A stretch of DNA of 64,000 nt from Bacteroidota bacterium (GTDB lineage: Bacteria; Bacteroidota; Bacteroidia; NORP154): assembly GCA_043811005.1 (NCBI GenBank), contig JBDRNO010000171.1:227-64226 (forward strand), read 5' to 3'. Position numbers and translations under genes: made by a program. The notes beneath the pieces were generated by a model that was not told the DNA's origin, did not search any database, and saw only the letters and a list, made by a program, of their open reading frames with translations. How positions within the stretch are numbered: the stretch's first letter is position 1; each line of letters starts with the position of its first letter. Positions 2,444 to 23,900 of the stretch are shown piece after piece.

Positions 2444-2523
2444 AATAAAATATATTTATATAATAATGGATTTAAGCAAAAATTATGCCTTAAATTCAAA
2501 AACTCGCTTCAATAATAAAATGG

Positions 2524-5748: not shown

Positions 5749-5811
5749 TGTTTTCAATTGTTAATTAAGATATTAATTTATAATTATGAGATTAACTTGA
5801 ATAATATCCGC

Positions 5812-5819: not shown

Positions 5820-5953
5820 CAGAATAAATAATTAAATAATAAAGCATTAATTGAACAAAATTATTTTTTTAATGTTGTTATTAAAAAATGTTTTTATTAA
5901 ATAGATAATTTATAATTTTACATATTTATTTATTGAACAAATTTTTAAATCCC

Positions 5954-8900
5954 ATGAAAAAAAAACTACTCCAACTCGCATTAATCTTAACAGGCATCTC
6001 AGGCACAGGATTTGCCCAACCGGTTATCTCCTATAACCCGGATTCTTTTAATGTTACACTGCCCGGTTGTAATGATTCTACAACGCTTCCTTTTACGATA
6101 TATAATACTGGCAGTGTCGATCTGTATTCCGATGTTTTTAACGGAACAGTTGCTTCAGGCGGCACATTTGATTATGCCTATCTTGCCAATTCTAATGATG
6201 GTAATGTTTCTGTTATTGATCTTAGCAATAATTCGATAATCGGAAGCCCTATACCTGTTGGTATGTGGCCAATGAGGTTGTCTATTAGCCCTGATAGAAA
6301 ATATGTGTACGTTTCTAATAGAGGAAGCAATGATATTGATGTGATCCAAACATCTGACAATACTGTTATTGCAAATATTCCTGTTGGTTTTGCTCCAACC
6401 GGGATTGCTTTTACTCCTGACGGAAATTTTGCTTACTCATGCAACAGGGATGATAACAATGTCATTATGATAGATTGCAGTACTTATGCAATTGTAGATA
6501 CTATTACTCAGGACATGAATTGGCCCCAGGATATTGCAATCACCCCCAACGGGAAATATGCTTATGTTGTAAACAGGAATAGCGGTGTAACAGTCTTCGA
6601 AACAAGTACAAATAATGTGATTGCCAATTTGCCAAGTGTTAGCATGGGTCATTCTGTAGTTATTACTCCAGATGGTCAATTTGTTTACGTCTCTGAATCA
6701 GTAAACCCGGGATTTATTATGGTCATTGACGTCAATACAAACACCATCATTGACAGCATAGGAATATTCCAGCAGGCTGTTGGATTGGATATTACTCAGG
6801 ATGGTAATTATATTTATGCAGGGAACAAATGGAATTCGAGTGTTGAGGTTATTGATGTCAGCACCAATGCCATCATCACTACTATTATGGACCCAAGATT
6901 AAATAATTGTTGGGGTGTTGCGATATCTCCTGATGGTAATTATGTATATGTTACAGTTTCCTGGAATTCACCGAGCATAGTAATTATTGATGTCAATACA
7001 AATACAGTCATTGGTGATTTAACTGCAAGTTTTAATGGTTCCTGGGATATAACTACAATAAAGGGAGCCACATGGCTTTCTGAAGATCCTGTATCAGACA
7101 CTATTGTACCTGGTGACTCTTCAATAATATATGTAAAATTCAAAGCTTCCGGTTTAAATTCAGGTACATATACATCACAAATACTTATCAGCTCTAATGA
7201 CGTTGTTCCACCTATTGATACTATTCCTTGTACATTAACAGTAATTGGTGTCCCTGTATTGGAATTGTCCGATAGTTGTTTGGACCTTGATACGGCAATG
7301 GTAGGAGGAACCAATTTGGATACAGTGCTTTTTATCAACACAGGGTGCGATACGTTGTTCATCACCAGTATAACAAACTCTTTAAGTGAATTTAACGTAG
7401 ATACTTTTACTTCAGTAGTGTTACCTTATGAATACGGAGGGGCTATCATTTCGTTCACGCCAACATCTGTCACTAGTTACTTTGATACGCTTAATATTTT
7501 CACCAATGATGTGGATACTACTGTATGCTTGTCTGGTGTTGGTATACCTCCGGCTATTATTTCCGTTGTTCCTGATTCATTTGACGTTACTATATTAAGC
7601 TGTAGCGATTCGGTTACAATACCTCTGACGATATACAATACAGGTGCAGCAAACCTGACTTATGATTTCAACGCACCGTGCTTGTATATGGTGGTGACCA
7701 TTAATACGCAAAACTGGGGAGGTGAAGTTTCGTGGGAGATAGAAAATGAATTTAGTGTAGTTGTTATGTCCGGCTCGGGTTATGCGGATTTTTCAACTTA
7801 CGTTGATTCGTTATGCGTTCCTCCCGGCAACTACTCATTTTATGCCTATGACGCTTTTGGCGATGGTTGGAATGGCGGAACTTATGATGTTTCCGTAGGA
7901 GGAGTAACAATAGCAAATAATGGCGGTGCTTCACCTGATAATTTTTTCTGCTGCGGTTTTGACCTGGAGTCAACAGAACCATTTACCATCATTGGCGGAG
8001 TTTTTCTTCCTTCGTGGCTTTCTTTAAATCCCGGCACACCTGATACCTTGGCGCCCGGTGATTCAGCCATCGTTGATGTACAATTTAATTCAACAGGTTT
8101 GGGTAGCGGACAACATACTTACGACCTGAACATCAATTCAAACGATCCGGTAAATAACCCGCTTATTGTTCCATGCACATTAACTGTAAATGGTGTTCCG
8201 CAATTGGTTTTATCCGACACATGTCTTGACCTTGATACGGCAATGATAGGGGCAACCAATTACGATACAGTGATCTTTATGAACACCGGGTGCGATACAT
8301 TGTTCATCACCAGTATTACCAATACATTAAGTGAATTTAATATTGATACTTTTACTTCAGTGATTTTACCTTATAACTGGGGTGGAGCTATCATTTCATT
8401 CTCTCCAACATCTGTAGGCAGTTTCCTAGATACACTGAACATATTCAGCAATGATGTAGATACTGCCGTATGCTTATCAGGTGAGGGAATTCCCGCACCA
8501 ACAATTTCTTTTGTCCCTGATTCATTTAATGTTACATTATCAGGATGTGATGATTCAATCACACTTCCGGTTACCATCTATAATGCCGGTGGTGGTGATT
8601 TGGATTTTGATGTATTAGACGGGATTTATTCTCCTGTTGCGGAATTTGGGTTTGCCTATATTGCCAATTCAAATGACAATACTGTCTCAGTTCTGGATTT
8701 GGCAACAAATACTATTGTAGGAGTTCCGATACCGGTTGGTATGTATCCATGGCGGATAACCGTTAAACCGGATGGTAATTATGTTTATGTTTCAAATAGA
8801 GATGGTAATAGTATTTCAGTTATCCGGACTTCAGATAATACAGTAACTGCTACTATTCCTGTCGGACAAAGACCGACAGGACTGGCATTCACACCTGATG

Positions 8901-11900
8901 GGAATTATGCTTATGTAGGTAACAGGAATAGCAATAATGTTATGGTAATAAATTGCACAACAAATTCAGTTGTAGCAACTATCACCCAGAGTTTGAATGG
9001 CCCCCAGGATATTGCAATTACCCCCGATGGGAACTATGCCTATGTCGCTACGTTTAATAATAGTGTTACAGTTATAGATGTTGGACCAGATACTGTTTAT
9101 GCAAATATCCCCGGGGTTGGAAGTTGTCATTCAATAGCTATTACTCCTGACGGGCAATTTATTTATGTTACTGAAGGATGGGGTACTAATGTAAGGGTTA
9201 TTGAAACAGCTACAAACACTATACTTACTACAATTGGAGGTTTTAACAGTCCTGCGGGTATTGATATAACCCCTGACGGCAATTCAGCATGGGTAGCTGA
9301 TAGATGGGGCTCACGAATAGTGATGATTGATGTAATTACGAATACAGTTGTTAAAACTGTTCCTGACCCTCTATTTAATAACGCATGGGATATCGGAATA
9401 TCCAATGATGGGGTATATGCCTATGTCACTAATCCTAATAGTTTTCCTAATACATTAATAATATATGATATTGTGGGGGACTCAATTACCGGAACTCAGC
9501 TTGCAGGCAACGGATCCCGCGGATTATCATTACTTAAAGGAGGCGTTGAATGGATGATTGAGAATCCCACTGCCGGAACCATTGTTCCCGGAGACAGCGC
9601 TTCGGTTGATGTAACTTTCTATGCCTCAGGGCTAACTTCAGGTACATATACGGCAAATATTTTTATAATCTCCAATGACCCTGTAACACCTGTTGATACT
9701 ATCCCATGTACATTAACTCTAAACGGATATCCTGTATTGGAATTATCCGATACATGTCTGGACCTTGATACGACAATGGTGGGGGCAACCAATTACGATA
9801 CAGTTATCTTTTTGAACACCGGTTGCGATACGTTGTTTATATCCAGTATAACAAACTCTTTAAGCGAATTTAACGTAGATACTTTTACTTCGGTAGTTTT
9901 ACCTTATGATTTCGGTGGAGCTATCGTTTCGTTCTCTCCAACATCTGCCGGCAGCTTTTTTGATACCCTTAATATTTTCAGCAATGATGTGGATACTACT
10001 GTCTGCTTATCAGGTGAGGGAATTCCTGCACCAACAATTTCTTTTATCCCGGATTCATTTAATGTTACATTAACAGTATGTGATGATTCGATCACACTTC
10101 CGGTGACTATCTACAATACAGGTGCTGGAGATTTGGATTTTGATGTATTGGACGGGGTTTATTCGCCCGTTGTAGATTTCGGGTTTGCATATATTGCCAA
10201 CTCAAGTGACAATTCTGTCTCGGTTCTGGATTTGGCAACAAATACTATTGTAGGAGTTCCGATACCGGTAGGAATGTATCCGTGGCGGATAACCGTTAAA
10301 CCGGATGGTAATTATGTTTATGTTTCAAATAGAGATGATAATACTATTTCAGTTATCCGGACTTCAGATAATACCGTAACCGCAACTATTCCTGTCGGAC
10401 AAAGACCGACCGGCCTGGCATTCACACCTGATGGGAATTATGCTTATGTAGGTAACAGGAATAGTAATAATGTTATGGTAATAAATTGTACAACAAATTC
10501 AGTTGTAGCAACTATCACCCAGAGTTTAAATGGCCCCCAGGATATTGCAATAACCCCCGATGGGAACTATGCCTATGTCGCTACGTTTAATAATAGTGTT
10601 ACAGTTATAGATGTTGGCCCCGATACTGTTTTAATCAATATCCCCGGAATTGCAAATTGTCATTCAATAGTTATTACCCCTAACGGACAATTTGCTTATG
10701 TTACTGAGGGATGGAACGGCAATGTATGGGTTATTGAAACAGCTACAAACACCATACTTACTACAATTAGTAGTTTTAATAATACTGTAGGCATTGATAT
10801 CACACCTGATGGCAATTCAGTTTGGGTAGTTGATAAATGGAACTCACAGATTGTAATGATAGATGTAAATACGAATACGGTCGTTAAAACTGTTCCCAAC
10901 CCTCTGTTTAATAACGCATGGGATATCGGAATATCCAATGATGGTGGATATGCCTATGTCACTAATCCTAATAGTTTTCCGAATACATTAATAATATATG
11001 ATATTGTGGGTGATTCAATTGCCGGAACTCAATTTGCAGGCAACGGATCCCGCGGATTATCATTACTTAAAGGAGGAGTGGAATGGATGATTGAGAATCC
11101 CACTGCTGGAACAATTGTTCCCGGAGACAGCGCTTCAGTTGATGTAACTTTTTATACCTCCGGGCTAACTTCAGGTACATATACAGCAAATATCTTTATA
11201 ACCTCCAATGACCCTGTAACACCTATTGATACTATCCCATGTGCATTAACTTTTAACGGTTATCCTGTTTTAGCATTGTCCGACACGTGTCTGGATCTTG
11301 ATACTGCAATGGTAGGGACGACCAATAATCAACCGCTCTGGTTTTACAATACCGGCTGTGATACTTTATTTGTTACCAACATCACGAACACAGTACCTGA
11401 ATTCTTTGTTGATACAACCCAACTGACATTATTACCCGGTGACTCAGGATTGGTTATTGTTTCATTCTCTCCTGCAAGTGTGGGCACATTCCTGGATACA
11501 CTTGATATTTTTAACAACGATGTGGATACAACAGTTTGTTTGCGTGGTGAAGCGATCCTCGCACCTACTATATCTTTTAATCCTGATTCGTTTGATGTTA
11601 CAATAACCAGTTGTTGTGATTCTTCAACCTTACCTCTAACTATTTACAATACCGGGGGAAGTGATCTGATCTTTGACCTGGGAATAGATAACCAGACTAC
11701 TCCTAAAGTTCTATTAATGAATGCATGGGGTGATGCGAACGCTGTGAGAACCCAATTGGTGTCAACAGGCAGGTTTGTTCCTTCGGATTTTGGAATATTA
11801 ACAAATCCTGCTACATTATCAATGGCTGATTTGGCTTCTTTTGATGTTGTACTTGCATGGGGCGGTGCTAATTGGAGTGATCCCATACTTATCGGAGATA

Positions 11901-14900
11901 CATTGAAAAAATTTGTGGATCAGGGTGGTGGTGTTGTAATTGCAACTTATTCATTATCTGCACCATGGCCAATTGCAGGAGGTATATTAAATCCTAATTA
12001 TTCGCCATTTCTTCCTGGTCCAACACAAGCTGTATCCGGCACAATAGATATAACTACACTGCCTGATCCGAATCATCCGATTTTTAATAACATTAGCGTT
12101 GATCCAACATATTGGTCGAATATAAGTTACTCAAACCCCCCTTTAAATATCGGTGGCACGCTAATAGCAAGTGATATCGGAGGGAACAGGGTAGTAGCAG
12201 AGAATCCTGATGGGAATGTAATAGGCATATCTGTTTATCCGGATAATTTAGGTGCAGGAAATGCCGAAGCCCGCCTGATGTTTGCCAATGCATTATATTA
12301 TGTGAATAAAGTTGATTGGCTTTCTGCTTCTTTATCAGCAGATACAATAACACCCGGAGATTCAACGATCGTTAATTTAACATTCAATACGTGTGACAAG
12401 AATACAGGAATTTACACAGCTAATCTCACAATCAATTCAAATGATCCTGCATCGCCCCTTGAAACTATATCTTGTACACTGACTCTAAACGGATATCCTG
12501 TTATGGCATTGTCCGATACCTGTTTGGATCTTGATACTGCAATGGTAGGGACGACCAATATTCAACCGCTGTGGTTTTACAATACCGGTTGTGATACTTT
12601 ATTTGTTACCAACATCACGAACATATTACCTGATTTCTCTGTTGATACAACCATGCTGACATTATTACCCGGAGACTCAGGGTTGGTCATTGTTTCATTC
12701 TCTCCGGCAAGTGCAGCCACATTCCTGGATACACTTAATGTTTTCAGTAATGATGTGGATACTACCGTATGCTTATCAGGTGTTGGTATTCCTACACCTA
12801 CAATTTTCACCATTCCTGACTCGTTTGATGTTACTATTACCAGTTGCTGTGATTCAACAACTTTACCATTATACCTGTATAATATTGGAGGAGGTGATTT
12901 ATATATCAATAACATTGACTATGGTGGTGGTGTTCCTCCGCTTTTCTATGAGCCCTGGGAGTCAGGAACCTATCTTCCAACATGGACCACCGGATCTTGT
13001 GGTTTTACATATAATGTAACCACTACGGATCCGGCAGTTGGAGCGTACTGCATGGAAATGATCGGAGGATGCAGTAATCATTACCAGGGATTAAGGCACG
13101 CATGGGGAACAAGTACACCTTCTTACGTGAGCTTTAGGGTAAAGTCGGGCAACGCAGGCCTTTCGGATGGTTATTTCGTTATAGGAGAAAATCCTTCCGC
13201 ATCCACAACCAACCAGATGGCGTTTTTCTACATGCGGAATACTGGCAATATGCGACTGGCTGGTCCGGATATTGACTTTCCTTACTTGCCCAATCAGTGG
13301 TATCACATAGAGTTCAGGAATATCGATTACGGAACGCAAACCTTCGATTGGTATGTAGATGGTGCCCTGGTCAATGCAAGCACTTCTTTCCGGGGTACTA
13401 ATATAACCAATAATGAAGTGCATTTTTATAATTTCAATTCTTCCACATCCTGGTTCGATGAAATAGTTATTGGGGATGGTCCTCCTGGTATTGAATGGCT
13501 AACCGTTAATCCTTTAACAGATACTATAGCTCCCGGAGATTCTTCCTTGATTAATGTAGAATTCAATAATTGCGGGCTCGGTACAGGAACATATATAGCA
13601 GAAATTATTATTAATTCAAACGACCATGCAAATTCATTTGACACAGTACCAGTTACATTAAATAGTGTTGGCTCACCTGAAATAATATTATCCGATACAT
13701 GCCTTTATTTGGATTCTATCATGGAATTTACGGTCAATACCGGCTCTGTAATGATTTATAATAACGGATGTGATACTTTGTTCGTTACTAATATAACAAA
13801 CTCCCTTCCGGAATACAGTGTTGATACTGCTAATTTTGCATTGCTGCCTGGTGATTCGCAACAGGTTATTGTAACTTTTTCTCCGACATCGGCAGGAACA
13901 TTTACAGATACTCTCACTATTGTTAACAATGATGGGGATACTACGGTTTGCTTATTGGGAAAAGCATACGATTCACCTACCATCTCTTTTGTCCCTGACT
14001 CTTTTGATGTCACAATTGTAGGATGTTGTGACTCCAGCACTTTGCCTCTTACTATTTACAATACGGGTGGGATTGATCTGATTTTTAACCTCCAGGGTGA
14101 AAACGATTTCTTTGACGATTTTGAAAGTGGTTTGGGTAATTGGTCATGGACCGGAAATTGGGGGCTTACACCGGATGCATACCAGGGAGCTAACGCTCTT
14201 TCCGAAAGCCCGTTTGGTAATTATGGAGATGGTTGGAATCAATATATTGAACTTATTCAGCCAATACGAATCTCAGAGGCATCTAGTTGCGAGTTAACTT
14301 ATTGGCAAAAGAGAAGTATGGAATGCTGCTGTGATTGGTTCCAGACACAGATAAGCGTTAACGGAGGAGGTTGGATAACGTTGGCATCATGGAATTGTAA
14401 TGATCCTGCCTGGAATTTGAAAACCTTCGATCTTTCAGGATTTTTAACTGACGGTGACACACTGGGTGTCCGCTTTAATTTTACTTCTGACGGATCTGTA
14501 AATTTTGATGGTGTGCAAATTGATAATGTATCAATTACAGGTGTACATTCTTTTGAAACATGGATGAGTGGTACGCCTTTATCTGATACTGTGGCGAGCG
14601 GAGATTCAACAATAGTTAATTTTCAATTCAATAGCTGTGGGGTAAATGTCGGGAGCTACCCGGCAAACGTTATTATCATTTCCAATGACCCGTTAAATCC
14701 ACAGGATACAGTACCAGTTGTGTTAACGGTTCAGGGAGCACCAGTAATTGAATTATCCGACACTTGTATTGATCTGGATACGGCAATGCAATGGACAACA
14801 TCTACAAATACTTTCCGGATATACAATACAGGATGTGATACATTGTTCGTTTCCAATATGACTACGACTTTGGCTGAATTCTATCCGGACACAACGGCAT

Positions 14901-17900
14901 TGGCTATCCCCCTTGGCGATTCGGCTCAGGTGACGGTTTCGTTTTCGCCTGTAACTGCCGGTAATTTTTATGATACTCTTATCATTTATAATAATGATGT
15001 GGATACAAGTATATGCCTGTCGGGTTATGCATATCTGGCGCCTGATATTGCTACTGACCCTGACTCGTTTGATGTTACAATTCCCGCATGTTGTGACTCT
15101 ACTACCCAGTCATTGACCATTTATAATAATGGAGGAACAGATCTAACATTTACCATTACTATCTGTAGTTCTGCCAGTCTGACACTTGATACAATTCTTA
15201 ATAATCTAAACCAAAATTACCTCAATGTTACCAGTGTTATTCCGAGCCGGTATGATTTCACTGACGGAGTTGCAGGCACAAATATAGGTGATGGGGGCGG
15301 AGATATGTATGATAACGGAAACTACCTCTGGACCAATCTTGGAGGCACCTTCAATTATTCAGATAATACAGTTATTCCTGATGCCTGGTTAGGCGCTACA
15401 GGAAAATATTTTACCAGGAAGCATCCAGGATTGTTCGTATTTGCTGCCGACCTGGATGGAATTGATTGGTTCGAGATCACAGGAAATTTAGGCGCTGATG
15501 GTGGTGGCAATGCCGATACTGCTACCCTGACAGCAACAAATTGCGGTATTACATATAAAGGATTTGTGAAAAGAGTTTATAATGCAGGAGACCCTTCCGT
15601 AAACCATCTGATCATCGTGGAAAATGATCCTGCAATTGATTATACATGGACAGCAAATACAGATGATGACCAGCACAGGATTTACAATTTGAGCTCTGCT
15701 CCGACTACACGGTTATACTACTTATTGTATGCTTCAACCGGTGGTGGTTATATCAATAATGCCCAGACATTAAATATTATGACAGAATTTATTAAGGCAA
15801 TACTTCCGCCTGCCGGGTGGTTATCATTTTCACTAAATACAGATACAATAACACCTGGTGATTCAACAATAATTGACGCACAATTCAATACTTGTGGGAT
15901 GAATGCAGGAACACATACATCCGACATAATTATCACTTCCAATGATCCTTTAAATTCACAAACTGCGATACCGGCTACATTTACAGTTATTGGCGTTGCC
16001 GAGATAGAATTATCGGATACCTGCCTTGATCTGGATACTGTCATGCAATGGTCTACCGGAAATAATTCTTTTTGGATCTACAACACCGGCTGTGATACAT
16101 TGTTCGTTACCAATATGACAACATCATTAAGTGAATTCAGTACAGATACAACTGCACTTACGATCTTACTGGGTGACTCGGCACAGGTAACTGTTTCATT
16201 CTCACCGACAACTGCCGGGAATTTTTATGATACTCTTATCATTTACAATAATGATGTAGATACAAGTATCTGCCTGTCAGCGTATGCTTACCTTGCACCG
16301 GCTATTTCATTCGACCCTGACACATTTGATGTTTCTATAACTGCATGCTGCGATTCTTTAATATATCCTGTAACAATTTATAATACAGGTGGTTCAGATT
16401 TAATTTACAATAGTTCAACAATATCCGGTTCCGTGATGACCTACTCTGAAAATTTCACAAACGGTAATACCTATTGTCCCGGAACCCCACAATTCGATAA
16501 TTGGGTCTCTTTCAGAAGCCAGTTGGACACTAACCTATATATGTTTACAAGAGTAACAATAAAGGGAAGTAATGATATGACAGGACGATCATGTACCGAT
16601 CCGGTTATGGTGAAGCAGATGGCAGGATCCCTCTGGCATAGTGTTGCAAGCACCTGGACAGGTTGTGATGGTAATACATGGATGGTTGGTATGGGTTGTG
16701 GTGGCGGATGCGGTGCTCCTGCCTCTCAAATTGTTGAATTTACTGCAGACGGAACAACTTGTAATTGTACCAGCCCGGGCTACATTTTAAGACCTGCGAT
16801 TGGCAATAACAACTGGGGAGGCATCAACGGAGTAACATGTGGGGCGCCAACTCAAACCATGACCGTAGAATTTGAATTCATCAGTTGGTTGAAATTGTCC
16901 CAGACTTTAGCAGATACGATAGCGCCAGGAGATTCAGCCATAGTTAATGCAACGTTCAATAGCTGCGGAATAAATGCCGGTACATATATAAATACCATTG
17001 TAATTACCTCCAATGATCCGATAAATAGTCCCGATACGATCCCAGTAACATTTACAATTAATGGCGCTCCTGAGATAGCGTTGTCTGACTCTTGTCTGTA
17101 CCTGGATTCAATAATACAATACTCATCTAATACCGAGACCTTCTATATTAGAAATATCGGATGTGATACGTTGTTTGTTTCGGATATAAATAATTCACTT
17201 ACAGAATTCAGCGTTAGCGATACTGCAGGTTATATCATGCCGGGAGATTCGGCAGAGATCATTGTTACATTTGCCCCTCTGACTGACGGTTTTTTTCAGG
17301 ATACATTAACGATTTTTAATAATGATGCAGATACTACAGTATGCCTGTCAGCTTATGCATATCTTGCACCTGTTATTTCATACGTCCCTGACTCATTTGA
17401 TGTTACCTTAGCCGCTTGTTGTGATTCGGTGACCTATCCTTTAACGATTTACAATACAGGCGGAAGTGATTTAGCTGTTGAGCTAGCAGGAACAGGGACT
17501 ATGGGAACGCCCGATGTTGCTTTGGTCACTGCTGAAGAAGCTGCTTATAATACCGATGTCCGGAATAAACTGATAGCAACAGGAGCATTTAATTCGGTTA
17601 CATTGGTAGATGCGCGATTTACGACACCTACATTAGCCGATCTTCAGAATTATGATGCTGTGCTGGTTTGGCGTAATTATGGATTTAATAATGCAGCACT
17701 TCTTGGTGATAATCTTGCCGATTATGTTGATGGAGGTGGTGGTGTTGTCACTGCGGTTTTTGCTAATTCATCAAGCACAATAACCGGACGATTCAATTCT
17801 GATGACTATTGGGTTATCCCTCCTGTAGGAGATGTAACAGGAGCTCAAAGTATGGGAACTGTATTTTTCCCCGCACACCCTATAATGCAAGGGGTAACAA

Positions 17901-20900
17901 GTTTTAATGGCGGTACTACAGCCTGGAGGGTATCAAATTTCAACGTTCATGCCAGCGCTACCAGAATAGCTGATTGGGTGGATGGAAGGCCGTTGGTAGC
18001 TACCCGGCTTATTAATGATGCATATAGAGTGGATTTAGGTATGTTTCCTCCTTCCAGTGATATCATTGGAGGGGGATGGGTTTCCTCTACTGACGGAGCG
18101 TTGTTAATGGCTAATTCTTTGTTATGGTCTATTGACGGAGGTGCTGCTTCCTGGCTATCAGTTAATCCTGAAACAGATACGATTGCTCCCGGTGATTCTT
18201 CCTTGTTTAATGTAGAATTCAATAGTTGCGGTCAGAATACAGGAACATACTTCTCTGATATTATTATTATGTCAAATGATCCACTGACACCACAGGATAC
18301 AATACTTGCAGTGTTCACGGTACAGGGCGCTCCGGAAATAGTCCTGTCAGATTCTTGTCTGTATCTGGATTCAATAATGGAATATACATTTAGCGTTAAC
18401 TCATTCTGGATTTTCAACACAGGTTGCGATACTTTATTCGTTACTGATATTAATAATTCAACACCTGAATATGGCGTTACTGATACCGCATTTACCATAC
18501 CGCTTGGCGATTCTGCGTTGGTAATGGTATGGTTTGCCCCGGCTTCTGTAGGATTTTTCCAGGATACTTTAACGATATTGAACAATGATACGGATATCAC
18601 CGTTTGTTTATCAGGTTATGGTTATGGCAGACCTATCATCTCTACTGATCCGGATTCATTTGATGTTGCATTGAACGGCTGCTGCGATTCAATAATAGTT
18701 CCTATGACAATATATAACAGCGGCTTGTCAGATCTTACCTGGAATAGCTGTTCCAATACAGGTATTTACGATGATTTTGATCCTATAGATGGATCGGCAT
18801 GGTCATCCTATTCAGGAATTGCAAGTGCAAACTGCGGTTCAGTAAGCGGTAATGCTATGTATTTTAACGCTGCTGGCATAAGGGAGGCAACCACAATTGA
18901 TATGGATGTTCAATGTATTAATGCAATTTCGTTTTATCTTAAGGTTGCAAATGGTACAGCTTTCCCGTGTGAATCTGCTGATGCAGGCGAGGATGTGGTA
19001 TTGGAATACTCAACTGATGGCGGAGCATTTTGGAATAATATATTTACTTATGACCAGGATAATTATGCTAATTTCACATATATTAATGAACCCATACCGC
19101 CTCCTGCTCAAACCTCCTCTACAAGGTTCAGATGGAGGCAACTTTCACATTCCGGATCAGTCAATGATCATTGGGCAATAGAGGATGTTTTTATTGGGGA
19201 CACGGTTAGTATTGCAAGTATGTCGCCTGATACAGGGACTATTGTGTCCGGTGATTCTGCAATTGTAAATGTCATATTCGATGGCTGTGGACTGGCTCCG
19301 GGATCATATTCGGATTCAGTCATCATTAATTCCAATGACCCATTGAACCCGCAGATAGTATTAGATGCCACAATAACCAAAGACACGATGCCGGGAGCGC
19401 CTGTTGCTTCGGATACTACAATTTGCTTTGGCGATCCCACACCTGACCTGACAGCAACCGGCACCAATATCCAATGGTATGATGATCCGTTATTAGACTC
19501 CGTGATATTCAGCGGTAATCCGTTTGCTTCAGGAGATACAGTAGCGGGTATTTATACCTATTATGTAACCCAAACAGTAAATGGTTGCGAAAGCCCTGAA
19601 GACACATCCGTCCTTACAATTAATGCCGGTCCGCCAGCTCCGGTAGCCACTGATACCACAATATGTTTTGGCAACCCGACACCTGATCTGATCGCTGCCG
19701 GAACAAATATAAAATGGTATAGTGATCCACTTCTTGACACGCTGGTGTTTACCGGAAGTCCGTTTGCTTCGGGGGACACAGCAATAGGAATATACAACTA
19801 TTATGTTACAGATAGTATAACCGGCTGTATCCCCAGCACAGCCGATACTGCTTCATTAACCATTAATTTTGTACCAACAGCGCCTGGCTCTTCAGACACA
19901 ACAATCTGTTTCGGTGACCCAACACCTGACCTTATCGCAACCGGATCTAATATCAAATGGTATAGCGATTCATCATTAACCACTCTGGAATTTGTTGGAG
20001 ATTCATTCGCATCAGGTGATACAGCCGTGGGCATATATATATATTACGCCATGGATAGCATTAATGGATGTGCCGGTCCTTATACTGTGGTAACTTTATC
20101 TATCAATGGAGCGCCAACAGCGCCACCTGATTCTGACACTACGATATGTTATGGTGATCCGATACCAGACCTGGTCGCAACAGGCACATATATTCAGTGG
20201 TACAGTGATACGGGACTTACAACATTGGTATTTAGCGGAGATACTTTTGCAACGGGAGATTCGACTGTTGGAGCTCATATATATTATGTTACAGATAGTG
20301 TAAGCGGATGTGCCGCAAGCCCTGCCGATACCGCCATATTGTTCATTAATGCAATTCCACCGGCGCCCATAGCTTCTGATTCGGCAATATGTTTTGGCGA
20401 TCCTCCTGGTGAACTAACAGCAACAGGAACCAACCTCCAATGGTATAGCGATTCATTGTTAGACACATTGGTTTGGATTGGCGATCCTTTCACAACAGGT
20501 GAAACCGGGGCAGGAACATACACATATTTTGTTACTCAAACAGTAAGCGGATGTGAAAGTCCGGCTGATACCGTTACCCTGACAATATATGCAACCCCGG
20601 CGCCGGACTCTTCCGATACAACGATATGTTCCGGAGACCCGACACCCGACCTGACAGCCACAGGAACCAACATCAAATGGTACAGTGATTCATTGCTTGA
20701 TACATTATTGTTTAGCGGCAATCCTTTTGCAACAGGCGAAACAGCAGTGGGGATATATATATATTATGTTACCGATAGCTTAAATGGCTGTGAAAGCCCT
20801 GGAACCATGGTTACATTAACCATAAATGCAGGACCCGGAGTACCGGTTGCATCCGACACTGCAATATGCTTTGGTGATCCCACACCTGACCTCACGGCAA

Positions 20901-23900
20901 CCGGTACCAACATCCAATGGTATGATGATCCGTTACTTGATTATGTGATCTATACAGGCAGTCCGTTTGCGACAGGTGAAACGGCTGCAGGCATATATAC
21001 ATGGTATGTTACAGATAGCATTTTAGGATGCCCCGAAGGACCGGCTGATACTGTTACATTAACAATAAATGCCATACCCTCAGTTCCCGTTTCTTCCGAT
21101 ACATTAATTTGTTTTGGTAATCCTACACCTGATCTCTCAGCTACCGGAAGTAATATCCAATGGTATAGTGATCCGGGTTTAACTGTATTGGAATTCAGCG
21201 GTAATCCTTTTGCAACAGGCGAAACAGTTGCAGGAAGCTATACATATTATGCAACACAAACAGTCAGTAACTGTGAGAGTCCTTCTGTAACAGTTACATT
21301 AACAATAAATGATATTCCGGCAACGCCTGCAGTATCAGATACTGCTATATGTTTTGGCGATCCCACACCTGACCTGGTAGCATCAGGTACCAATATCCAA
21401 TGGTATGACGATGGAGGTTTGACTAATTTAGTGTTCACAGGCAGTCCGTTTGCAACAGGCAATACAGCAGCAGGAACATATACTTATTATGTCACGGATA
21501 GTGTAAATGGATGCCCGGCAAGCCCTGCGGATACAGTTACTTTGATAATCAATGCTATCCCGGCAGCTCCGTTAGCTTCCGATACTGCCTCATGTGTTGG
21601 CGATACAGTACCCGACCTGATAGCAGTAGGAGCCAACATACAATGGTACGATGATACACTATTAACTATCCCTGTATTTATTGGGGACACTTTTACAACA
21701 GGAGATACATTACCTGGAACATATATCTATTATGCTACCCAAACCGTAAACAATTGTGAAAGTCCTGCAGATACTGTTACGCTGACAATATATTCAACAC
21801 CTGCACCAACCTCTTCAGACACAACGATATGTTTTGGCGATCCAACACCTGATCTCTCAGCAACAGGAAGTAATATACAATGGTATAGTGATCCTGCGCT
21901 TACTACATGGGAATTCAGCGGCAATCCTTTCACATCAGGAGATGTTGCCGTTGGTATATATACTTATTATGCCACTCAAACGCTGAACAGTTGTGAGGGC
22001 CCTGCAGTATCAGTTATATTAACGATAAATGCAGGGCCGGGTATTCCAGTGGCATCTGACACGGCAATATGTTTCGGTGATACAATACCTGACTTAACGT
22101 CAACTGGTACCAACATCCAATGGTATGATGATCCATTGCTTGACTCAGTGATCTCTACCGGCAGTCCGTTTGTAACAGGTGAAACTGCCGTTGGAATATA
22201 CACATATTATGTTACCGATAGCGTAACCGGATGTGCCGAAGGTACTCCTGATACTGCTGTTTTAACCATAAATGCCATACCCACAGCACCGGTATCTTCA
22301 GACACAATAATATGTTTCGGAGATCCTACGCCTGATCTCTCGGCAACAGGAAGTAATATCCAATGGTATAGTGATTCTGCACTCACTACATTAGAATTCA
22401 GCGGTAATCCATTCTCCTCTGGAGATGTAGCAGTTGGTGTATATATTTATTATTCAACCCAGACCGTAAGCGGCTGTGAAAGTCCGGGAACTGCTGTAAC
22501 CTTAACTATCAATGCACCACCGGCTGTACCTGCTGGCTCAGATACTGCAATATGTTTTGGTGACCCGACACCTGACCTGACTGCAAGCGGTTTATATATC
22601 CAGTGGTATAGCGATACGGGTCTGACAACATTAGAATTTGCCGGAGACACTTTTGTTACTGGAGAGACAGCAGCAGGAACATATAACTATTATGTTACTG
22701 ACAGTGTTATAGGATGTGCTCAAAGTATACCCGATACAGCTACATTGATAATAAATGCAATACCTTCAGCGCCAATAGCTTCGGATACAGCTTCGTGTGT
22801 TGGAGACACAACACCAGATCTGATCGCAGTTGGAGCCAACATACAATGGTACGATGATACACTATTAACCATTCCTGTATTTATTGGGGACACTTTTACA
22901 ACAGGAGATACATTACCTGGAATATATACCTATTATGCTACACAGACCGTAAACAATTGTGAAAGTCCAGCAGATACTGTTACGCTGACAATATATTCAA
23001 CCCCTGCACCCACATCTTCCGACACAACGATATGTTTTGGCGATCCCACACCTGATCTATCGGTAACAGGAAGTAATATCCAATGGTATAGTGACCCTGC
23101 ACTTACCACATTGGAATTCAGCGGCAATCCTTTCTCATCAGGAGATACTACCGTTGGTATATATACTTACTATGCCACTCAAACACTCAACAATTGTGAA
23201 GGGCCTGCAGTAGCAGTTACATTGACGATAAATGCAGGGCCCGGAGTACCGGTTGCATCCGACACTGCAATATGCTTTGGCGATCCCACACCTGACCTGA
23301 CCTCAACCGGGACCAACATCCAATGGTATGATGATCCTCTGCTTGACTCAGTGATCGCTACCGTCAGCCCGTTTGCAACAGGAGAAACAGCAGTTGGAAC
23401 CTATGTGTATTATGTTACTGATAGCGTAACCGGATGTTCCGAAGGTACTCCTGATACTGCTGTTTTAACAATAAATGCTATACCCACAGCACCGGTGTCT
23501 TCAGACACAATAATATGTTTCGGAGATCCTACACCTGATCTCTCGGCTACCGGAAGTAACATACAATGGTATAGTGATTCTGCACTCACTACATTAGAAT
23601 TCAGCGGCAATCCATTCTCCTCAGGAGATGTAGCAGTTGGTGTATATATTTATTATGCAACCCAGACCGTAAACAATTGTGAAAGTCCGGGAACTACTGT
23701 AACCTTAACTATCAATGCGCCACCGGCTGTACCTGCTGGCTCAGATACTGCAATATGTTTTGGTGACCAGACACCTGACCTGACTGCAAGCGGTTTATAT
23801 AACCAGTGGTATAGCGATGCGGGTCTGACAATATTAGAATTTGCCGGAGACACTTTTGTTACTGGAGAGACAGCAGCAGCAACATATACTTATTATGTTA

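What the first reader, a model, noticed from the sequence alone, without database searches (positions are those of the whole stretch)
7560..19390. Payload-in-scaffold design: unrelated globular domains sit at one fixed position of a reiterated beta-sandwich unit
One ~200-aa unit recurs through all three genes. It begins with a short N-terminal piece (PDSF(N/D)VT...C(C)DS.T.PLTIYNTG..DL). Next comes a segment W(L/M)S..P..DTI.PGDS..V.V.F...G...GTY...I.I.SNDP.NP...IP.TL.V.G. Last comes a full ASH/choice-of-anchor-D-like domain (LSDTCL.LD...NTGCDTLF.T.I.N...F...D......PGDS....V.F.P...G.F.DTL.I.NND.DT..CLSG). Every divergent domain lies exactly between the first two pieces: propeller, GDGWNGG, GATase-like, ConA-like, MAM-like, DGGGDMYD, Cys-rich, reelin-like, GEVED and LamG. 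Some units carry no payload, for example 59640-60240 (...LNELNWNIGFSVIIGGISVDSLSG...) and 36180-36780. Joined together, the two flanking pieces look like one complete beta-sandwich. That suggests nested domain insertion into a loop, a modular display scaffold. The payload order is partly shared between gene 1 (DGGGDMYD, Cys-rich, GATase-like, reelin-like) and gene 3 (DGGGDMYD, empty unit, Cys-rich, reelin-like).
Basis: inference. Interest (0 to 1): 0.7.

Follow-up and report, generated by a model that had tools for sequence, protein, structure and literature searches.

The report
Split Ig domains displaying swappable payload domains
Three giant secreted surface proteins of an uncultured Bacteroidota bacterium are built from a repeated Ig-like domain that is cut open at one fixed loop. 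Whole unrelated domains (propellers, lectin-like folds and unknown folds) are plugged into that loop. This is the same trick known from "split domains" of RTX adhesins, but with a different fold, a different secretion system and far more copies.

Summary

**Layout.** Local profile searches find 31 units in strict order across three tandem giant genes: a 40-aa N-piece, a payload, a ~70-aa post-piece, then an intact ~92-aa PF22544 / choice-of-anchor-D Ig domain. 23 units carry a complete payload, 7 are empty with a 2-5 aa loop, and 1 is cut by the window end. The payloads fall into 10 sequence types.

**The two pieces form one domain.**
- With the payload deleted, N+post matches PF22544 end to end above threshold. 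The post-piece alone matches only the C-terminal half.
- In 366 loaded modules from related giant proteins, N-pieces co-evolve strongly with the post-piece after the payload (couplings up to 3.3). These include parallel and antiparallel strand ladders and a perfectly covarying Cys pair.
- Couplings to the preceding unit's post-piece are at noise level (≤1.3).

**Spread.** The module occurs in at least 127 of the 150 best-matching giant proteins, with about 31 payload families, one of them a subtilase.

**Context.** Genes 1 and 2 end in T9SS type A sorting domains after long Ig_7 stalks.

**Closest known.** Split Ig-like domains of T1SS RTX adhesins. I rate this a new variant of a known kind. 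The adhesin or display function is inferred, not shown.

The parts
5933..33478 (+). Gene 1 (9181 aa). Layout: Sec signal peptide, 11 loaded modules (aa 29-4487), about 45-50 Ig_7 stalk repeats interrupted by two (intact + empty split) domain pairs, then a T9SS type A sorting domain. The true start is probably the ATG at 5954.
33976..54795 (+). Gene 2 (6939 aa). 10 units (6 loaded, 4 empty), then Ig_7 stalk repeats by DNA-repeat similarity, then a T9SS type A sorting domain. Identical to database representative P0077.
55282..64000 (+). Gene 3 (at least 2906 aa in the window; the database version P0078 is 3484 aa and is itself truncated). 8 units.
6017..7546 (+). g1 unit 1. N-piece 6017-6136; payload 6137-7066 (YVTN 7-bladed propeller, 310 aa); post-piece 7067-7276; intact Ig 7271-7546.
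7553..8491 (+). g1 unit 2. N-piece 7553-7669; payload 7670-8008 (GDGWNGG domain, 113 aa, no Pfam match); post-piece 8009-8221; intact Ig 8216-8491.
8495..10024 (+). g1 unit 3. N-piece 8495-8614; payload 8615-9544 (YVTN propeller); post-piece 9545-9754; intact Ig 9749-10024.
10028..11557 (+). g1 unit 4. N-piece 10028-10147; payload 10148-11077 (YVTN propeller, 89% identical to unit 3); post-piece 11078-11287; intact Ig 11282-11557.
11561..12790 (+). g1 unit 5. N-piece 11561-11680; payload 11681-12310 (ThuA/GATase1-like, weak match, 210 aa); post-piece 12311-12520; intact Ig 12515-12790.
12794..13969 (+). g1 unit 6. N-piece 12794-12913; payload 12914-13489 (ConA/Laminin_G_3-like, weak match, 192 aa); post-piece 13490-13699; intact Ig 13694-13969.
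13973..15034 (+). g1 unit 7. N-piece 13973-14092; payload 14093-14554 (InhA-like MAM, 154 aa); post-piece 14555-14764; intact Ig 14759-15034.
15038..16291 (+). g1 unit 8. N-piece 15038-15157; payload 15158-15811 (DGGGDMYD domain, 218 aa, no Pfam or PDB relative); post-piece 15812-16021; intact Ig 16016-16291.
16295..17362 (+). g1 unit 9. N-piece 16295-16414; payload 16415-16879 (Cys-rich domain, 155 aa, no Pfam match); post-piece 16880-17092; intact Ig 17087-17362.
17366..18625 (+). g1 unit 10. N-piece 17366-17485; payload 17486-18145 (ThuA/GATase1-like, weak match, 220 aa); post-piece 18146-18355; intact Ig 18350-18625.
18629..19393 (+). g1 unit 11. N-piece 18629-18748; payload 18749-19204 (Reelin subrepeat B, 152 aa); post-piece 19205-19393. 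The array ends on a post-piece and is followed by Ig_7 repeats.
19400..33200 (+). g1 stalk. About 45-50 Ig_7 (PF19081, CHU_C-associated) repeats of roughly 80 aa (240 nt).
26402..26983 (+). g1 intact Ig 26402-26674 plus empty split unit 12 (N-piece 26681-26800, loop STD, post-piece 26810-26983), embedded in the stalk.
30176..30757 (+). g1 intact Ig 30176-30448 plus empty split unit 13 (N-piece 30455-30574, loop STD, post-piece 30584-30757).
33233..33475 (+). g1 T9SS type A C-terminal sorting domain (Por_Secre_tail / TIGR04183).
34039..35097 (+). g2 unit 1. N-piece 34039-34158; payload 34159-34623 (GEVED); post-piece 34624-34830; intact Ig 34825-35097.
35107..36159 (+). g2 unit 2. N-piece 35107-35223; payload 35224-35685 (GEVED); post-piece 35686-35892; intact Ig 35899-36159.
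36172..36771 (+). g2 unit 3, EMPTY. N-piece 36172-36288; loop DY; post-piece 36295-36504; intact Ig 36499-36771.
36781..37836 (+). g2 unit 4. N-piece 36781-36897; payload 36898-37359 (GEVED); post-piece 37360-37566; intact Ig 37567-37836.
37846..38442 (+). g2 unit 5, EMPTY. N-piece 37846-37962; loop DY; post-piece 37969-38178; intact Ig 38173-38442.
38455..39219 (+). g2 unit 6. N-piece 38455-38571; payload 38572-39030 (GEVED); post-piece 39031-39219. This array ends on a post-piece.
42838..44076 (+). g2 unit 7. N-piece 42838-42954; payload 42955-43596 (DGGGDMYD); post-piece 43597-43806; intact Ig 43801-44076.
44080..45609 (+). g2 unit 8. N-piece 44080-44196; payload 44197-45129 (YVTN propeller); post-piece 45130-45339; intact Ig 45334-45609.
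45616..45930 (+). g2 unit 9, EMPTY. N-piece 45616-45732; loop SSD; post-piece 45742-45930.
51499..52080 (+). g2 intact Ig 51499-51771 plus EMPTY unit 10 (N-piece 51781-51897; loop STD; post-piece 51907-52080).
54550..54792 (+). g2 T9SS type A C-terminal sorting domain.
55345..56856 (+). g3 unit 1. N-piece 55345-55461; payload 55462-56376 (YVTN propeller); post-piece 56377-56586; intact Ig 56581-56856.
56860..58380 (+). g3 unit 2. N-piece 56860-56979; payload 56980-57903 (YVTN propeller); post-piece 57904-58110; intact Ig 58105-58380.
58387..59625 (+). g3 unit 3. N-piece 58387-58500; payload 58501-59145 (DGGGDMYD); post-piece 59146-59355; intact Ig 59350-59625.
59632..60240 (+). g3 unit 4, EMPTY. 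N-piece 59632-59745; loop GFSVI; post-piece 59761-59970; intact Ig 59965-60240.
60247..61323 (+). g3 unit 5. N-piece 60247-60363; payload 60364-60840 (Cys-rich); post-piece 60841-61053; intact Ig 61048-61323.
61327..62382 (+). g3 unit 6. N-piece 61327-61446; payload 61447-61902 (Reelin subrepeat B); post-piece 61903-62112; intact Ig 62107-62382.
62389..63633 (+). g3 unit 7. N-piece 62389-62505; payload 62506-63156 (Laminin_G_3, E=5e-24); post-piece 63157-63366; intact Ig 63361-63633.
63643..64000 (+). g3 unit 8. N-piece 63643-63759; the payload begins and is cut by the window end.

Best explanation
**What it is (shown).** Each roughly 200-aa 'unit' is two ASH/PapD-type Ig-like domains of Pfam family PF22544 (NCBIfam 'choice-of-anchor D').
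- One domain is intact and acts as a spacer.
- The other is a split host domain. Its first four strands (A, A', B, B'; the 40-aa N-piece) and its last five strands (the ~70-aa post-piece) are separated in sequence by a complete foreign domain.
- The foreign domain sits in the loop after the 'NTG..DL.f.i' hairpin and before the 'WLS' strand. In empty units this loop is only 2-5 residues long.
- The two pieces fold back together into one sandwich. Co-evolution points to A' pairing in parallel with the last strand and B' pairing antiparallel with C'. In one lineage a Cys-Cys staple joins the pieces.
- The payload therefore hangs off the side of the chain on two tethers.

**How it most likely works (inferred).**
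- The three genes encode giant T9SS cargo proteins (shown for g1 and g2) that would be anchored at the C-terminus.
- A long Ig_7 stalk would hold an N-terminal, distal 'business end' away from the cell.
- That end consists of alternating intact and split domains that present many different binding modules. In relatives one payload is a subtilase.
- Tension along the fibre would run through the Ig sandwich and not through the payload.
- This is the same logic as the split domains that project ligand-binding domains in RTX adhesins.
For: **Architecture**
- Strict N -> payload -> post -> intact order in 31 units.
- Constant segments of 199-202 aa.
- Junction alignment of loaded and empty units.

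**One domain from two pieces**
- Payload-deleted chimeras hit PF22544 at profile positions 1-89/96 above the gathering score. The post-piece alone hits only 49-93, the N-piece alone hits nothing, and the best natural empty unit hits 1-95.
- The 'full' HMM hits across the N/post junction of empty units.
- Arrays begin with an N-piece after the signal peptide and end with a post-piece.

**Co-evolution in loaded modules only**
- 12 of the top 20 DCA couplings link N and post.
- 10 N-post couplings exceed every shuffled control.
- Ladders at j-i=84 and i+j~92 are present.
- Pairing with the preceding unit is at noise level.
- The Cys pair at columns 21 and 70 co-occurs 21/21 in loaded and 5/5 in empty modules and is never single. 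In the window it is 13/13 against 0/17.

**AlphaFold2 and Foldseek**
- N-piece pLDDT is 90-94 with flanking domains and 85-91 without them. The unit-3 model has pTM 0.73, and low confidence is confined to the two linkers.
- Foldseek on the unit-8 model puts ASH-domain proteins of the ciliary central pair (hydin and others) at the top. The propeller's best hit is 1l0q.

**Autonomy of payloads**
- The DGGGDMYD domain occurs with the same boundaries both nested in split Ig domains and free-standing right after signal peptides.

**Generality**
- Among the 150 best representative proteins, 445 of 492 intact-to-post intervals are loaded and 43 are empty.
- There are about 31 payload clusters, one of them Peptidase_S8 with its prodomain.
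- The same module is found in Flavobacteriales and Bacteroidales MAGs.

**Surface protein context**
- T9SS type A sorting domains and Ig_7 stalks.
- Payloads lie at a median relative position of 0.30 in complete-looking relatives.

**Analogy**
- Split domains in RTX adhesins (PMC10865825, PMC12077191, bioRxiv 10.1101/2025.09.30.679566).
Against: - No atomic coordinates were available from the structure tool. Strand contacts between the pieces and the distance between payload termini were never measured directly.
- The AlphaFold2 alignments contained empty units, so the models are partly guided by homology.
- The payload in model 1 is poorly predicted (pLDDT 32-69).
- The DCA is my own mean-field script, run on about 350-430 effective sequences taken from the best 150 hits only.
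- The Cys pair is confined to 8 of 128 proteins.
- One native empty unit scores 23.7 bits and one chimera (g3 unit 7) 14.5 bits against PF22544, both below the 25.5 cut-off.
- Function is entirely inferred. No ligand, expression or localisation data exist, and several payloads (ThuA-like, subtilase) look enzymatic rather than adhesive.
- The g3 C-terminus is not in the window.
Confidence: 0.85

Rival explanations
1. Beads on a string. The 40-aa N-piece is a linker, an independent mini-domain, or an extension of the preceding intact domain. The post-piece is a truncated Ig domain. Payloads are then ordinary tandem domains, not nested ones.
For: - Read linearly, the sequence is compatible with this.
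- Pfam reports only the C-terminal half of PF22544 for the post-piece in native sequence (unit 2: profile 52-89).
Against: - Chimeras restore a full-length PF22544 match.
- Empty units are contiguous.
- N(i) co-evolves with post(i), and couplings to the preceding unit are at noise level.
- A Cys pair spans the two pieces.
- The N-piece keeps pLDDT 85-91 when the preceding domain is absent from the construct.
Confidence: 0.03
2. Circularly permuted pairing. N(i) completes the post-piece of the preceding unit, post(i-1), so that the intact domain rather than the payload is the inserted element.
For: post(i-1), the intact domain and N(i) form one constant contiguous block of 199-202 aa.
Against: - DCA for N(i)+post(i-1) gives a maximum coupling of 1.28, the same as shuffled controls. 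N(i)+post(i) gives 3.33.
- Arrays would be left with an orphan N-piece at the start and an orphan post-piece at the end.
- Empty units show N directly joined to its own post-piece.
Confidence: 0.02
3. The nested architecture is real, but the proteins are not adhesins. They could be surface-tethered multi-enzyme or nutrient-capture platforms, or a protective coat or S-layer-like matrix. The payloads would then act as catalytic or structural modules rather than ligand binders.
For: - ThuA/GATase1-like payloads are the largest payload cluster (81 members).
- A complete subtilase with prodomain is a payload in relatives.
- The closest solved propeller (1l0q) comes from an archaeal surface-layer protein.
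Against: - Most annotated payload types are classic binding folds: LamG/ConA-like, MAM, reelin-B jelly rolls, and propellers.
- The stalk-plus-distal-module layout matches fibrillar adhesins (PMC8286594).
- ThuA-like matches are below Pfam thresholds, and catalytic residues were not checked.
Confidence: 0.25
4. Assembly artefact. The repeats were mis-joined in a metagenome assembly, creating chimeric units that do not exist in any genome.
For: - Giant repetitive genes are error-prone in short-read assemblies.
- Units 3 and 4 of g1 are about 90% identical.
Against: - Most units share only 38-68% identity.
- The longest exact DNA match between constant segments is 41 nt, with a median of 12.5 nt.
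- The reading frame stays open for 9181 and 6939 codons.
- The same architecture recurs in at least 127 independent giant proteins and in MAGs of other orders.
Confidence: 0.02

Closest known systems
Split Ig-like domains that project ligand-binding domains in T1SS RTX adhesins (MpIBP, V. cholerae FrhA, A. hydrophila AhLap). Sources: Sherik et al. 2024, PMC10865825; PMC12077191; bioRxiv 10.1101/2025.09.30.679566; Graham et al. 2024, Proteins 92:933, cited there but not held.
   Same: - An Ig-like stalk domain is discontinuous in sequence.
- A complete foreign domain buds from it with both termini at one site.
- Intact extender domains lie between split ones.
- The split domains sit in a distinct 'ligand-binding region' at the end of a long repetitive stalk of a giant surface protein.
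- Payloads are diverse (CBMs, vWFA, PA14, peptide-binding domains).
   Different: - The host fold here is ASH/PapD-type PF22544 / choice-of-anchor D, not BIg.
- The split comes after the fourth strand, not after the first strand or before the last two.
- Export is by Sec plus a T9SS type A sorting domain, not by a T1SS with an RTX beta-roll and N-terminal retention module. Polarity is therefore reversed, with the payload region N-terminal.
- Multiplicity is much higher: 11 loaded modules in one protein and 23 complete ones in the window. The RTX papers read describe at most six CBMs in one adhesin (Ab3a).
- In the window, split and intact domains alternate strictly 1:1 with a constant 199-202 aa cassette.
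- No search of the held literature linked T9SS with split domains.
PF22544 HYDIN/CFA65/VesB-like Ig-like domain, ASH domain and NCBIfam NF012200 choice-of-anchor D
   Same: - Intact domains match at 38-68 bits.
- Foldseek's and phmmer's best solved relatives are hydin and other ciliary central-pair ASH proteins.
   Different: - The family profiles (PF22544, NF012200) cover one uninterrupted ~100-aa stretch. Here, half of the copies are interrupted by 113-311 aa, and up to 421 aa in relatives.
- Standard domain annotation therefore sees only the C-terminal half, or nothing, of the host domain.
Tandem YVTN beta-propeller + PKD of the Methanosarcina surface-layer protein (PDB 1l0q)
   Same: It is the best structural match of the propeller payload (E=3.6e-31, 30% identity). 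A surface-protein propeller is combined with an Ig-like domain.
   Different: The entry title describes the two 1l0q domains as tandem. Here the propeller is nested inside the Ig-like domain.
Bacteroidota fibrillar adhesin-like proteins with Por_Secre_tail or CHU_C anchors (Monzon et al. 2021, PMC8286594)
   Same: - Giant proteins with stalk repeats plus adhesive domains and a T9SS anchor.
- That survey noted adhesive domains placed internally in Bacteroidetes proteins.
   Different: That survey treats domains as linear beads. A term search of it found no mention of nested domains or DUF1573, and the only hits for 'inserted' concern membrane insertion of RTX adhesins.

Membership tests
PF22544 HYDIN/CFA65/VesB-like Ig-like domain (ASH/PapD-like) | Full-length match to the Pfam profile above the gathering score (25.5 bits): the intact domains | tested here: met
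   38.5-67.7 bits at profile positions 1-90 in nine units.
PF22544 HYDIN/CFA65/VesB-like Ig-like domain (ASH/PapD-like) | Full-length match of the split domain once the payload is removed | tested here: met
   Chimeras score 38.4, 26.8, 33.0 and 37.2 bits over profile positions 1-89/96, and one weak case scores 14.5 bits. Native empty units score 39.5, 26.7 and 23.7 bits. The post-piece alone covers only 49-93, and the N-piece alone matches nothing.
PF22544 HYDIN/CFA65/VesB-like Ig-like domain (ASH/PapD-like) | ASH-type beta-sandwich fold | tested here: met
   Foldseek on the AF2 model puts hydin and other ciliary central-pair chains (7som, 7sqc, 9ijj) at the top, E down to 1e-20. It also hits CEP192 SPD-2 and P. 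gingivalis 2qsv. No coordinates could be inspected.
NCBIfam NF012200 choice-of-anchor D domain | Score above the curated cut-off (45 bits) | tested here: inconclusive
   Scores of 37.7-51.5 bits. Three of five tested units pass and two fall below.
RTX-adhesin split domain + ligand-binding domain unit | Host Ig-like domain discontinuous in sequence, interrupted by a complete autonomous domain | tested here: met
   The payload (DGGGDMYD) also occurs free-standing with the same boundaries.
RTX-adhesin split domain + ligand-binding domain unit | N and C termini of the inserted domain emerge next to each other from the host | tested here: inconclusive
   Inferred from the 2-5 aa loop of empty units and from strand ladders on both sides of the junction. 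Not measured, because no model coordinates were available.
RTX-adhesin split domain + ligand-binding domain unit | Host is a BIg-type extender, split after the first strand or before the last two strands | tested here: not met
   The host is PF22544 (ASH type). The split lies after four strands and before five.
RTX-adhesin split domain + ligand-binding domain unit | Protein has an N-terminal retention module and a C-terminal RTX beta-roll with a T1SS signal | tested here: not met
   An N-terminal Sec-type signal peptide is read from the sequence. A C-terminal T9SS type A sorting domain is found, and no RTX match appears in the segments scanned.
RTX-adhesin split domain + ligand-binding domain unit | The inserted domain binds a ligand | not testable with these tools
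   Only fold-family hints are available (LamG, MAM, reelin-B, propeller).
T9SS type A cargo / fibrillar adhesin-like protein | C-terminal Por_Secre_tail (TIGR04183 / PF18962) sorting domain | tested here: met
   g1 scores 36.9 bits and g2 38.1 bits against a cut-off of 23. PF18962 scores 42.2 bits. g3's C-terminus lies outside the window.
T9SS type A cargo / fibrillar adhesin-like protein | Long array of stalk (Ig-like) repeats | tested here: met
   Ig_7 (PF19081) is found in every 481-aa slice of g1 aa 4480-9100, 3-5 matched stretches per slice. DNA repeat families with 240-nt spacing (up to 86 copies of one 95-nt core) run through g1 and g2.

The most novel reading that the evidence does not exclude
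One specific loop of a bacterial ASH-type Ig domain may be a general-purpose 'socket'.
- It has captured at least about 31 unrelated domain families, one of them a subtilase with its prodomain, in at least 127 giant surface proteins, several with T9SS tails.
- The constant 200-aa cassette (post + intact + N) may double as the recombination unit that lets payloads be shuffled, duplicated or deleted between modules and between tandem paralogous genes.
- If so, this would be a natural plug-and-play display platform for rapid diversification of what a cell surface can bind or digest.

Partial support:
- The same payload type sits in different scaffold subtypes. DGGGDMYD is found in a CC-type scaffold in g1 and in single-Cys scaffolds in g2 and g3.
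- Payloads are more conserved than their scaffolds.
- Empty sockets exist.

Against recent exchange: no long identical DNA tracts were found.
Probability: 0.35. Interest if true: 0.7.

Novelty: new variant of a known kind. Interest (0 to 1): 0.55.

Why it matters
**Annotation.** Domain annotation treats proteins as linear strings of beads, so it misses or halves the host Ig domain in these proteins and mis-sets payload boundaries. Recognising the split gives exact construct boundaries (N + payload + post) for expressing about 31 payload families. Many of these have no Pfam or PDB relative, for example DGGGDMYD, GDGWNGG and the Cys-rich domain.

**Biology.** The 'split domain projects the functional domain' rule, so far described for T1SS RTX adhesins of Proteobacteria, also applies with a different fold and insertion site to giant proteins that include T9SS cargo of Bacteroidota. 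This argues for convergent evolution of a mechanical design in which the payload is kept off the load-bearing axis.

**Practical use.** The rule can serve as a search key for the functional modules in these otherwise unannotated giant proteins of environmental Bacteroidota. The scaffold also tolerates 100-420 aa insertions at one loop, which makes it a candidate for engineered surface display.

Tried and rejected
1. **Model coordinates.** I hoped to measure N-post contacts and payload-terminus distances in the AF2 models. The tool returns no coordinates and /data holds none. I replaced this with profile tests and DCA.
2. **Foldseek across the payload.** The alignments span the whole query (520-737 columns), but no per-residue alignment is shown, so they do not decide the split.
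3. **Word-indexed homologue search, GDGWNGG unit.** It gave only 2 hits.
4. **Word-indexed homologue search, constant-cassette profile.** It gave only 6 hits, too insensitive for a census. The exhaustive HMMER search solved this.
5. **N-piece HMM in relatives.** It was too weak at first, with many intact-to-post transitions lacking a detected N-piece. I redefined intervals from the end of the intact domain. The N.G motif was then present in 477 of 492.
6. **Source organism.**
   - The genome scan found only relatives at 38-53% identity.
   - Exact-protein look-ups of the upstream gene and of P0078 found nothing.
   - The source remains 'uncultured Bacteroidota-like'.
7. **Recent gene conversion between cassettes.** Not supported. 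The longest exact DNA match is 41 nt.
8. **Second insertion site in the intact domain.** It exists but is rare, in 2 of 150 proteins plus L001. It is not part of the window.
9. **Graham et al. 2024 (Proteins 92:933).** It could not be read because it is not held.

Full report
**1. What is in the window**

The window holds three tandem + strand giant ORFs:
- g1, 5933-33478, 9181 aa.
- g2, 33976-54795, 6939 aa.
- g3, from 55282, running off the end of the window.

Each begins with a Sec-type signal peptide (MKKKLLQLALILTGISGTGFAQ|P), read directly from the sequence.

They hit all three proteins in one invariant order, N -> gap -> post -> full -> N and so on, with domain E-values of 1e-10 to 1e-48. 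This defines 31 units:
- 23 carry a complete payload of 113-311 aa.
- 7 are 'empty', with only 2-5 residues between N and post (STD, SSD, DY, GFSVI).
- 1 is cut by the window end.

The constant stretch between two payloads (post + full + N) is 199-202 aa in all 24 measurable cases. The finding's coordinates, 7560-19390, correspond to g1 units 2-11. Unit 1 (6017-7546) also belongs.

**2. Payloads**

| Payload type | Copies | Support |
|---|---|---|
| 7-bladed YVTN propeller | 6 | Best PDB match 1l0q |
| GDGWNGG | 1 | No Pfam match |
| ThuA/GATase1-like | 2 | Weak, below threshold |
| ConA/Laminin_G_3-like | 1 | Weak |
| InhA-like MAM | 1 | Pfam |
| DGGGDMYD | 3 | No Pfam match; no PDB relative |
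| Cys-rich | 2 | No Pfam match |
| Reelin subrepeat B | 2 | E=7e-32 |
| GEVED | 4 | Pfam |
| Laminin_G_3 | 1 | E=5e-24 |

The partly shared order is also confirmed. g1 has DGGGDMYD, Cys-rich, ThuA-like, reelin. g3 has DGGGDMYD, empty, Cys-rich, reelin.

**3. Are the two flanking pieces one domain?**

*Profile test.* The intact domain is PF22544 (HYDIN/CFA65/VesB-like Ig; also ASH, DUF1573, and NCBIfam choice-of-anchor D).
- In native loaded units, Pfam sees the post-piece only as the C-terminal half of PF22544 (profile 52-89).
- When I deleted the payload in silico, N+post matched PF22544 in a single stretch from profile position 1 to 89-96 of 100. Scores were 26.8-38.4 bits against a cut-off of 25.5.
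- The post-piece alone matched 49-93 (20.6 bits), and the N-piece alone matched nothing.
- Native empty units matched up to 1-95 (39.5 bits).
- One chimera (g3 unit 7, 14.5 bits) and one empty unit (23.7 bits) fall below the cut-off.

*Array ends.* Every array starts with an N-piece directly after the signal peptide and ends on a post-piece (g1 unit 11, g2 unit 6). Nested pairing predicts this. The alternative pairing of N(i) with post(i-1) does not.

*Structure prediction.*
- Model 1 covers g1 aa 2943-3453 (intact + N + DGGGDMYD + post + intact). The N-piece has pLDDT 90-94 and the post-piece block means of 78-95. The payload is poor (32-69).
- DSSP gives eight strands for the intact domain. 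For the split domain it gives four strands in the N-piece plus five in the post-piece.
- Model 2 covers g1 unit 3 without any flanking domain (N + propeller + post). Mean pLDDT is 86.9 and pTM 0.73. The N-piece has pLDDT 85-91. Inside the modelled unit, only the two linkers fall below 50; the last residues after the post-piece do too.
- The N-piece is therefore modelled confidently without the preceding unit.
- The tool returns no coordinates, so I could not measure contacts. The alignments also contained empty units, so these models are partly guided by homology.
- Foldseek puts hydin and other ciliary central-pair ASH proteins at the top for model 1.

*Co-evolution, the decisive test.* An exhaustive HMMER search with the 24-sequence profile of the constant cassette found 40,664 representatives at E≤1e-3 and 3,687 at E≤1e-30. 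The best 150 are giant proteins of 1,286-7,628 aa that match the cassette end to end several times.
- From these I extracted N-pieces and post-pieces of loaded modules only (payload >100 aa) and ran a mean-field direct-coupling analysis.
- With 448 modules (Meff 433), the strongest couplings in the whole alignment link the two pieces.
- With 366 modules for which the preceding unit's post-piece is also known, the results are:

| Pairing | Strongest N-post couplings |
|---|---|
| N(i) + post(i), across the payload | 3.33, 3.28, 3.09, 2.37, 1.90 |
| N(i) + post(i-1), preceding unit | at most 1.28 |
| Three random re-pairings | at most 1.31-1.48 |
| Intra-piece, for comparison | about 2.5 |

- Ten N-post pairs exceed every control, and 12 of the top 20 couplings are N-post.
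- The pairs form a parallel ladder (columns 14-98, 16-100, 18-102; strand A' with the last strand).
- They also form an antiparallel ladder (35-57, 37-54, 39-53, 40-53; strand B' with C').
- The top pair is a Cys pair: the second Cys of 'CCDS' in the N-piece with the Cys of 'FN.C' in the post-piece.
  - It co-occurs 21/21 in loaded and 5/5 in empty modules and never occurs singly.
  - In the window the count is 13/13 against 0/17.
  - A second, looser pair (columns 20 and 97) is also enriched.
- Caveats: this is my own script, the depth is modest, and the Cys pair is restricted to 8 of 128 proteins.

**4. Position of the insertion**

In every unit the scaffold similarity stops after '...NTG..DL.f.i' and resumes at '(s)W(L/M)S..P'. 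In the intact domain the equivalent stretch is 'NTGCDTLFVTNI-TNSLP-EFSVD'.

The site is therefore the loop between the fourth strand (B') and the next strand. Among relatives this one site dominates, with 445 loaded intervals. A second site in the intact domain (profile position ~45-50) was seen in only 2 of 150 proteins and in locus L001.

**5. Payloads are autonomous, mobile domains**

Homologues of the DGGGDMYD unit include:
- Fragments with the same nested arrangement (P0001 at 99% coverage; also P0003, P0005, P0007-9, P0013, P0015, P0016, P0036, P0037).
- Proteins where the domain stands free directly after a signal peptide, with the same helix-to-helix boundaries (P0010, P0011, P0014, P0017, P0021, P0024).
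- Proteins where it sits next to Fn3, SdrD-like, S8 peptidase or LamG domains.

Between paralogous units the payloads are generally more conserved (57-68% in most cross-gene pairs) than their scaffolds (38-68%). The same payload type also sits in different scaffold subtypes.

No long identical DNA tracts link the cassettes (longest 41 nt, median 12.5). Recent gene conversion is therefore not evident.

**6. Generality**

- In the 150 representatives there are 492 intact-to-post intervals. 43 are 35-60 aa (N-piece plus empty loop), 445 exceed 100 aa, and only 4 fall in between. The N-piece 'h.h.N.G' motif follows the intact domain in 477 of 492.
- The 461 payloads form about 31 BLAST clusters, 25 of them non-singleton. 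This count includes the window's payloads, and those of g2 and g3 are counted twice because P0077 and P0078 are those proteins.
- All ten window types recur elsewhere.
- Further types include DUF4350/ThuA-like, Kelch-like, DUF6923-like, several without Pfam matches, and a complete Peptidase_S8 subtilase with a fervidolysin-type prodomain.
- The same module is present in a Flavobacteriales MAG (L001, 5 loaded units) and an uncultured Bacteroidales MAG (L002, 4 units with a new ~225-aa payload).

**7. Protein context and likely mechanism**

- g1 and g2 end in T9SS type A sorting domains.
- Between the loaded modules and the C-terminus, g1 carries about 45-50 Ig_7 (CHU_C-associated) repeats, interrupted twice by an intact-plus-empty-split pair.
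- In complete-looking relatives, payloads lie at a median relative position of 0.30.
- From established knowledge of T9SS type A cargo (C-terminal attachment to the cell surface), the loaded modules would form the distal end of a long fibre.
- I infer that the split domains keep the chain's load path inside the Ig sandwich, with A'-G pairing and in some lineages a disulfide. The payloads would then be presented sideways on two tethers.
- Whether the payloads bind ligands, catalyse reactions or both is not shown.

**8. Comparison with what is known**

Split Ig-like domains that project ligand-binding domains are established for T1SS RTX adhesins (PMC10865825; PMC12077191; bioRxiv 10.1101/2025.09.30.679566).

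The present system works like those but fails their membership tests on four points:
- Host fold: ASH/PF22544 rather than BIg.
- Split position: after four strands, not after one strand or before the last two.
- Secretion and anchoring: Sec plus T9SS, not T1SS with RTX and a retention module.
- Polarity: the payload region is N-terminal.

It also differs in scale (11 loaded modules in one protein) and, in the window, in its regular 1:1 alternation with an intact spacer.

Full-text searches found no paper linking T9SS with split domains. Term searches in the Bacteroidota fibrillar-adhesin survey found no mention of nested domains (PMC8286594).

**9. Verdict**

- It is a new variant of a known design principle, widespread but apparently undescribed for this fold and secretion system.
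- Confidence is about 0.9 for the nested architecture and about 0.6 for the adhesin or display function.

Noticed in passing
window 15158-15811, 42955-43596, 58501-59145: The ~215-aa 'DGGGDMYD' payload is an uncharacterised domain family with no Pfam or PDB relative. It occurs nested in split Ig domains and also free-standing after signal peptides in small T9SS proteins. It is found next to Fn3, SdrD-like, S8 and LamG domains. It also hits proteins of the green alga Cymbomonas tetramitiformis.
   Followed up: partly
L001 ORF aa 1348-1613; also P0080 aa 1054-1318 and P0090 aa 1340-1605: In relatives the normally intact spacer domain is itself split at a second site (profile position ~45-50, before the 'LPGDS' strand) by an insert of ~168-174 aa. 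This is rare: 2 of 150 proteins plus L001.
   Followed up: partly
P0226 aa 544-964 (relative, not in the window): A complete subtilase (Peptidase_S8, E=1e-59) with a fervidolysin-type N-terminal prodomain sits as a payload in the same Ig loop. Three proteins share this payload, so payloads are not only binding modules.
   Followed up: partly
window 19400-33200 and 39150-54300: Very large arrays of ~240-nt (80-aa) Ig_7 / CHU_C-associated repeats form the stalks of g1 and g2 (up to 86 copies of one 95-nt repeat core). Higher-order periods of 483/720/1203 nt in g1 suggest duplication of multi-repeat blocks.
   Followed up: no
window 8495-11557: g1 units 3 and 4 are a recent tandem duplicate. The payload is 89% identical, the N-piece 88% and the post-piece 93%, while the intact domains that follow them are only 65% identical.
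   Followed up: no
window 2524-5757 (- strand): The divergently oriented upstream gene encodes a 1077-aa protein with a signal peptide, PD40 beta-propeller repeats and a ~500-aa low-complexity 'AEKAKAEA' Ala/Glu/Lys-rich tail. This tail explains the extreme AT skew (-0.5) at 2001-4000.
   Followed up: partly
window 59632-59970 and 15023-16279: NCBIfam NF041425 'OS_HP2 family (seleno)protein' gives weak matches (23 bits against a cut-off of 100). In the empty unit the match covers the split domain almost end to end (residues 15-102, profile 12-97 of 98). This probably reflects a shared Ig-like fold.
   Followed up: no
window-wide, units of g1, g2 and g3: Between paralogous units the payloads are in most pairs more conserved than the Ig scaffold that carries them (for example DGGGDMYD 66-68% against N-piece 38-60% and post-piece 45-50%). 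The scaffold of one payload type often resembles the scaffold of a different payload type most closely. This hints at decoupled histories.
   Followed up: partly
L002 ORF aa 66-1565 (uncultured Bacteroidales): Four consecutive modules carry a ~225-aa payload type absent from the window. It is repeat-rich with 'YNLDG...WDG' motifs and may be a small propeller.
   Followed up: no
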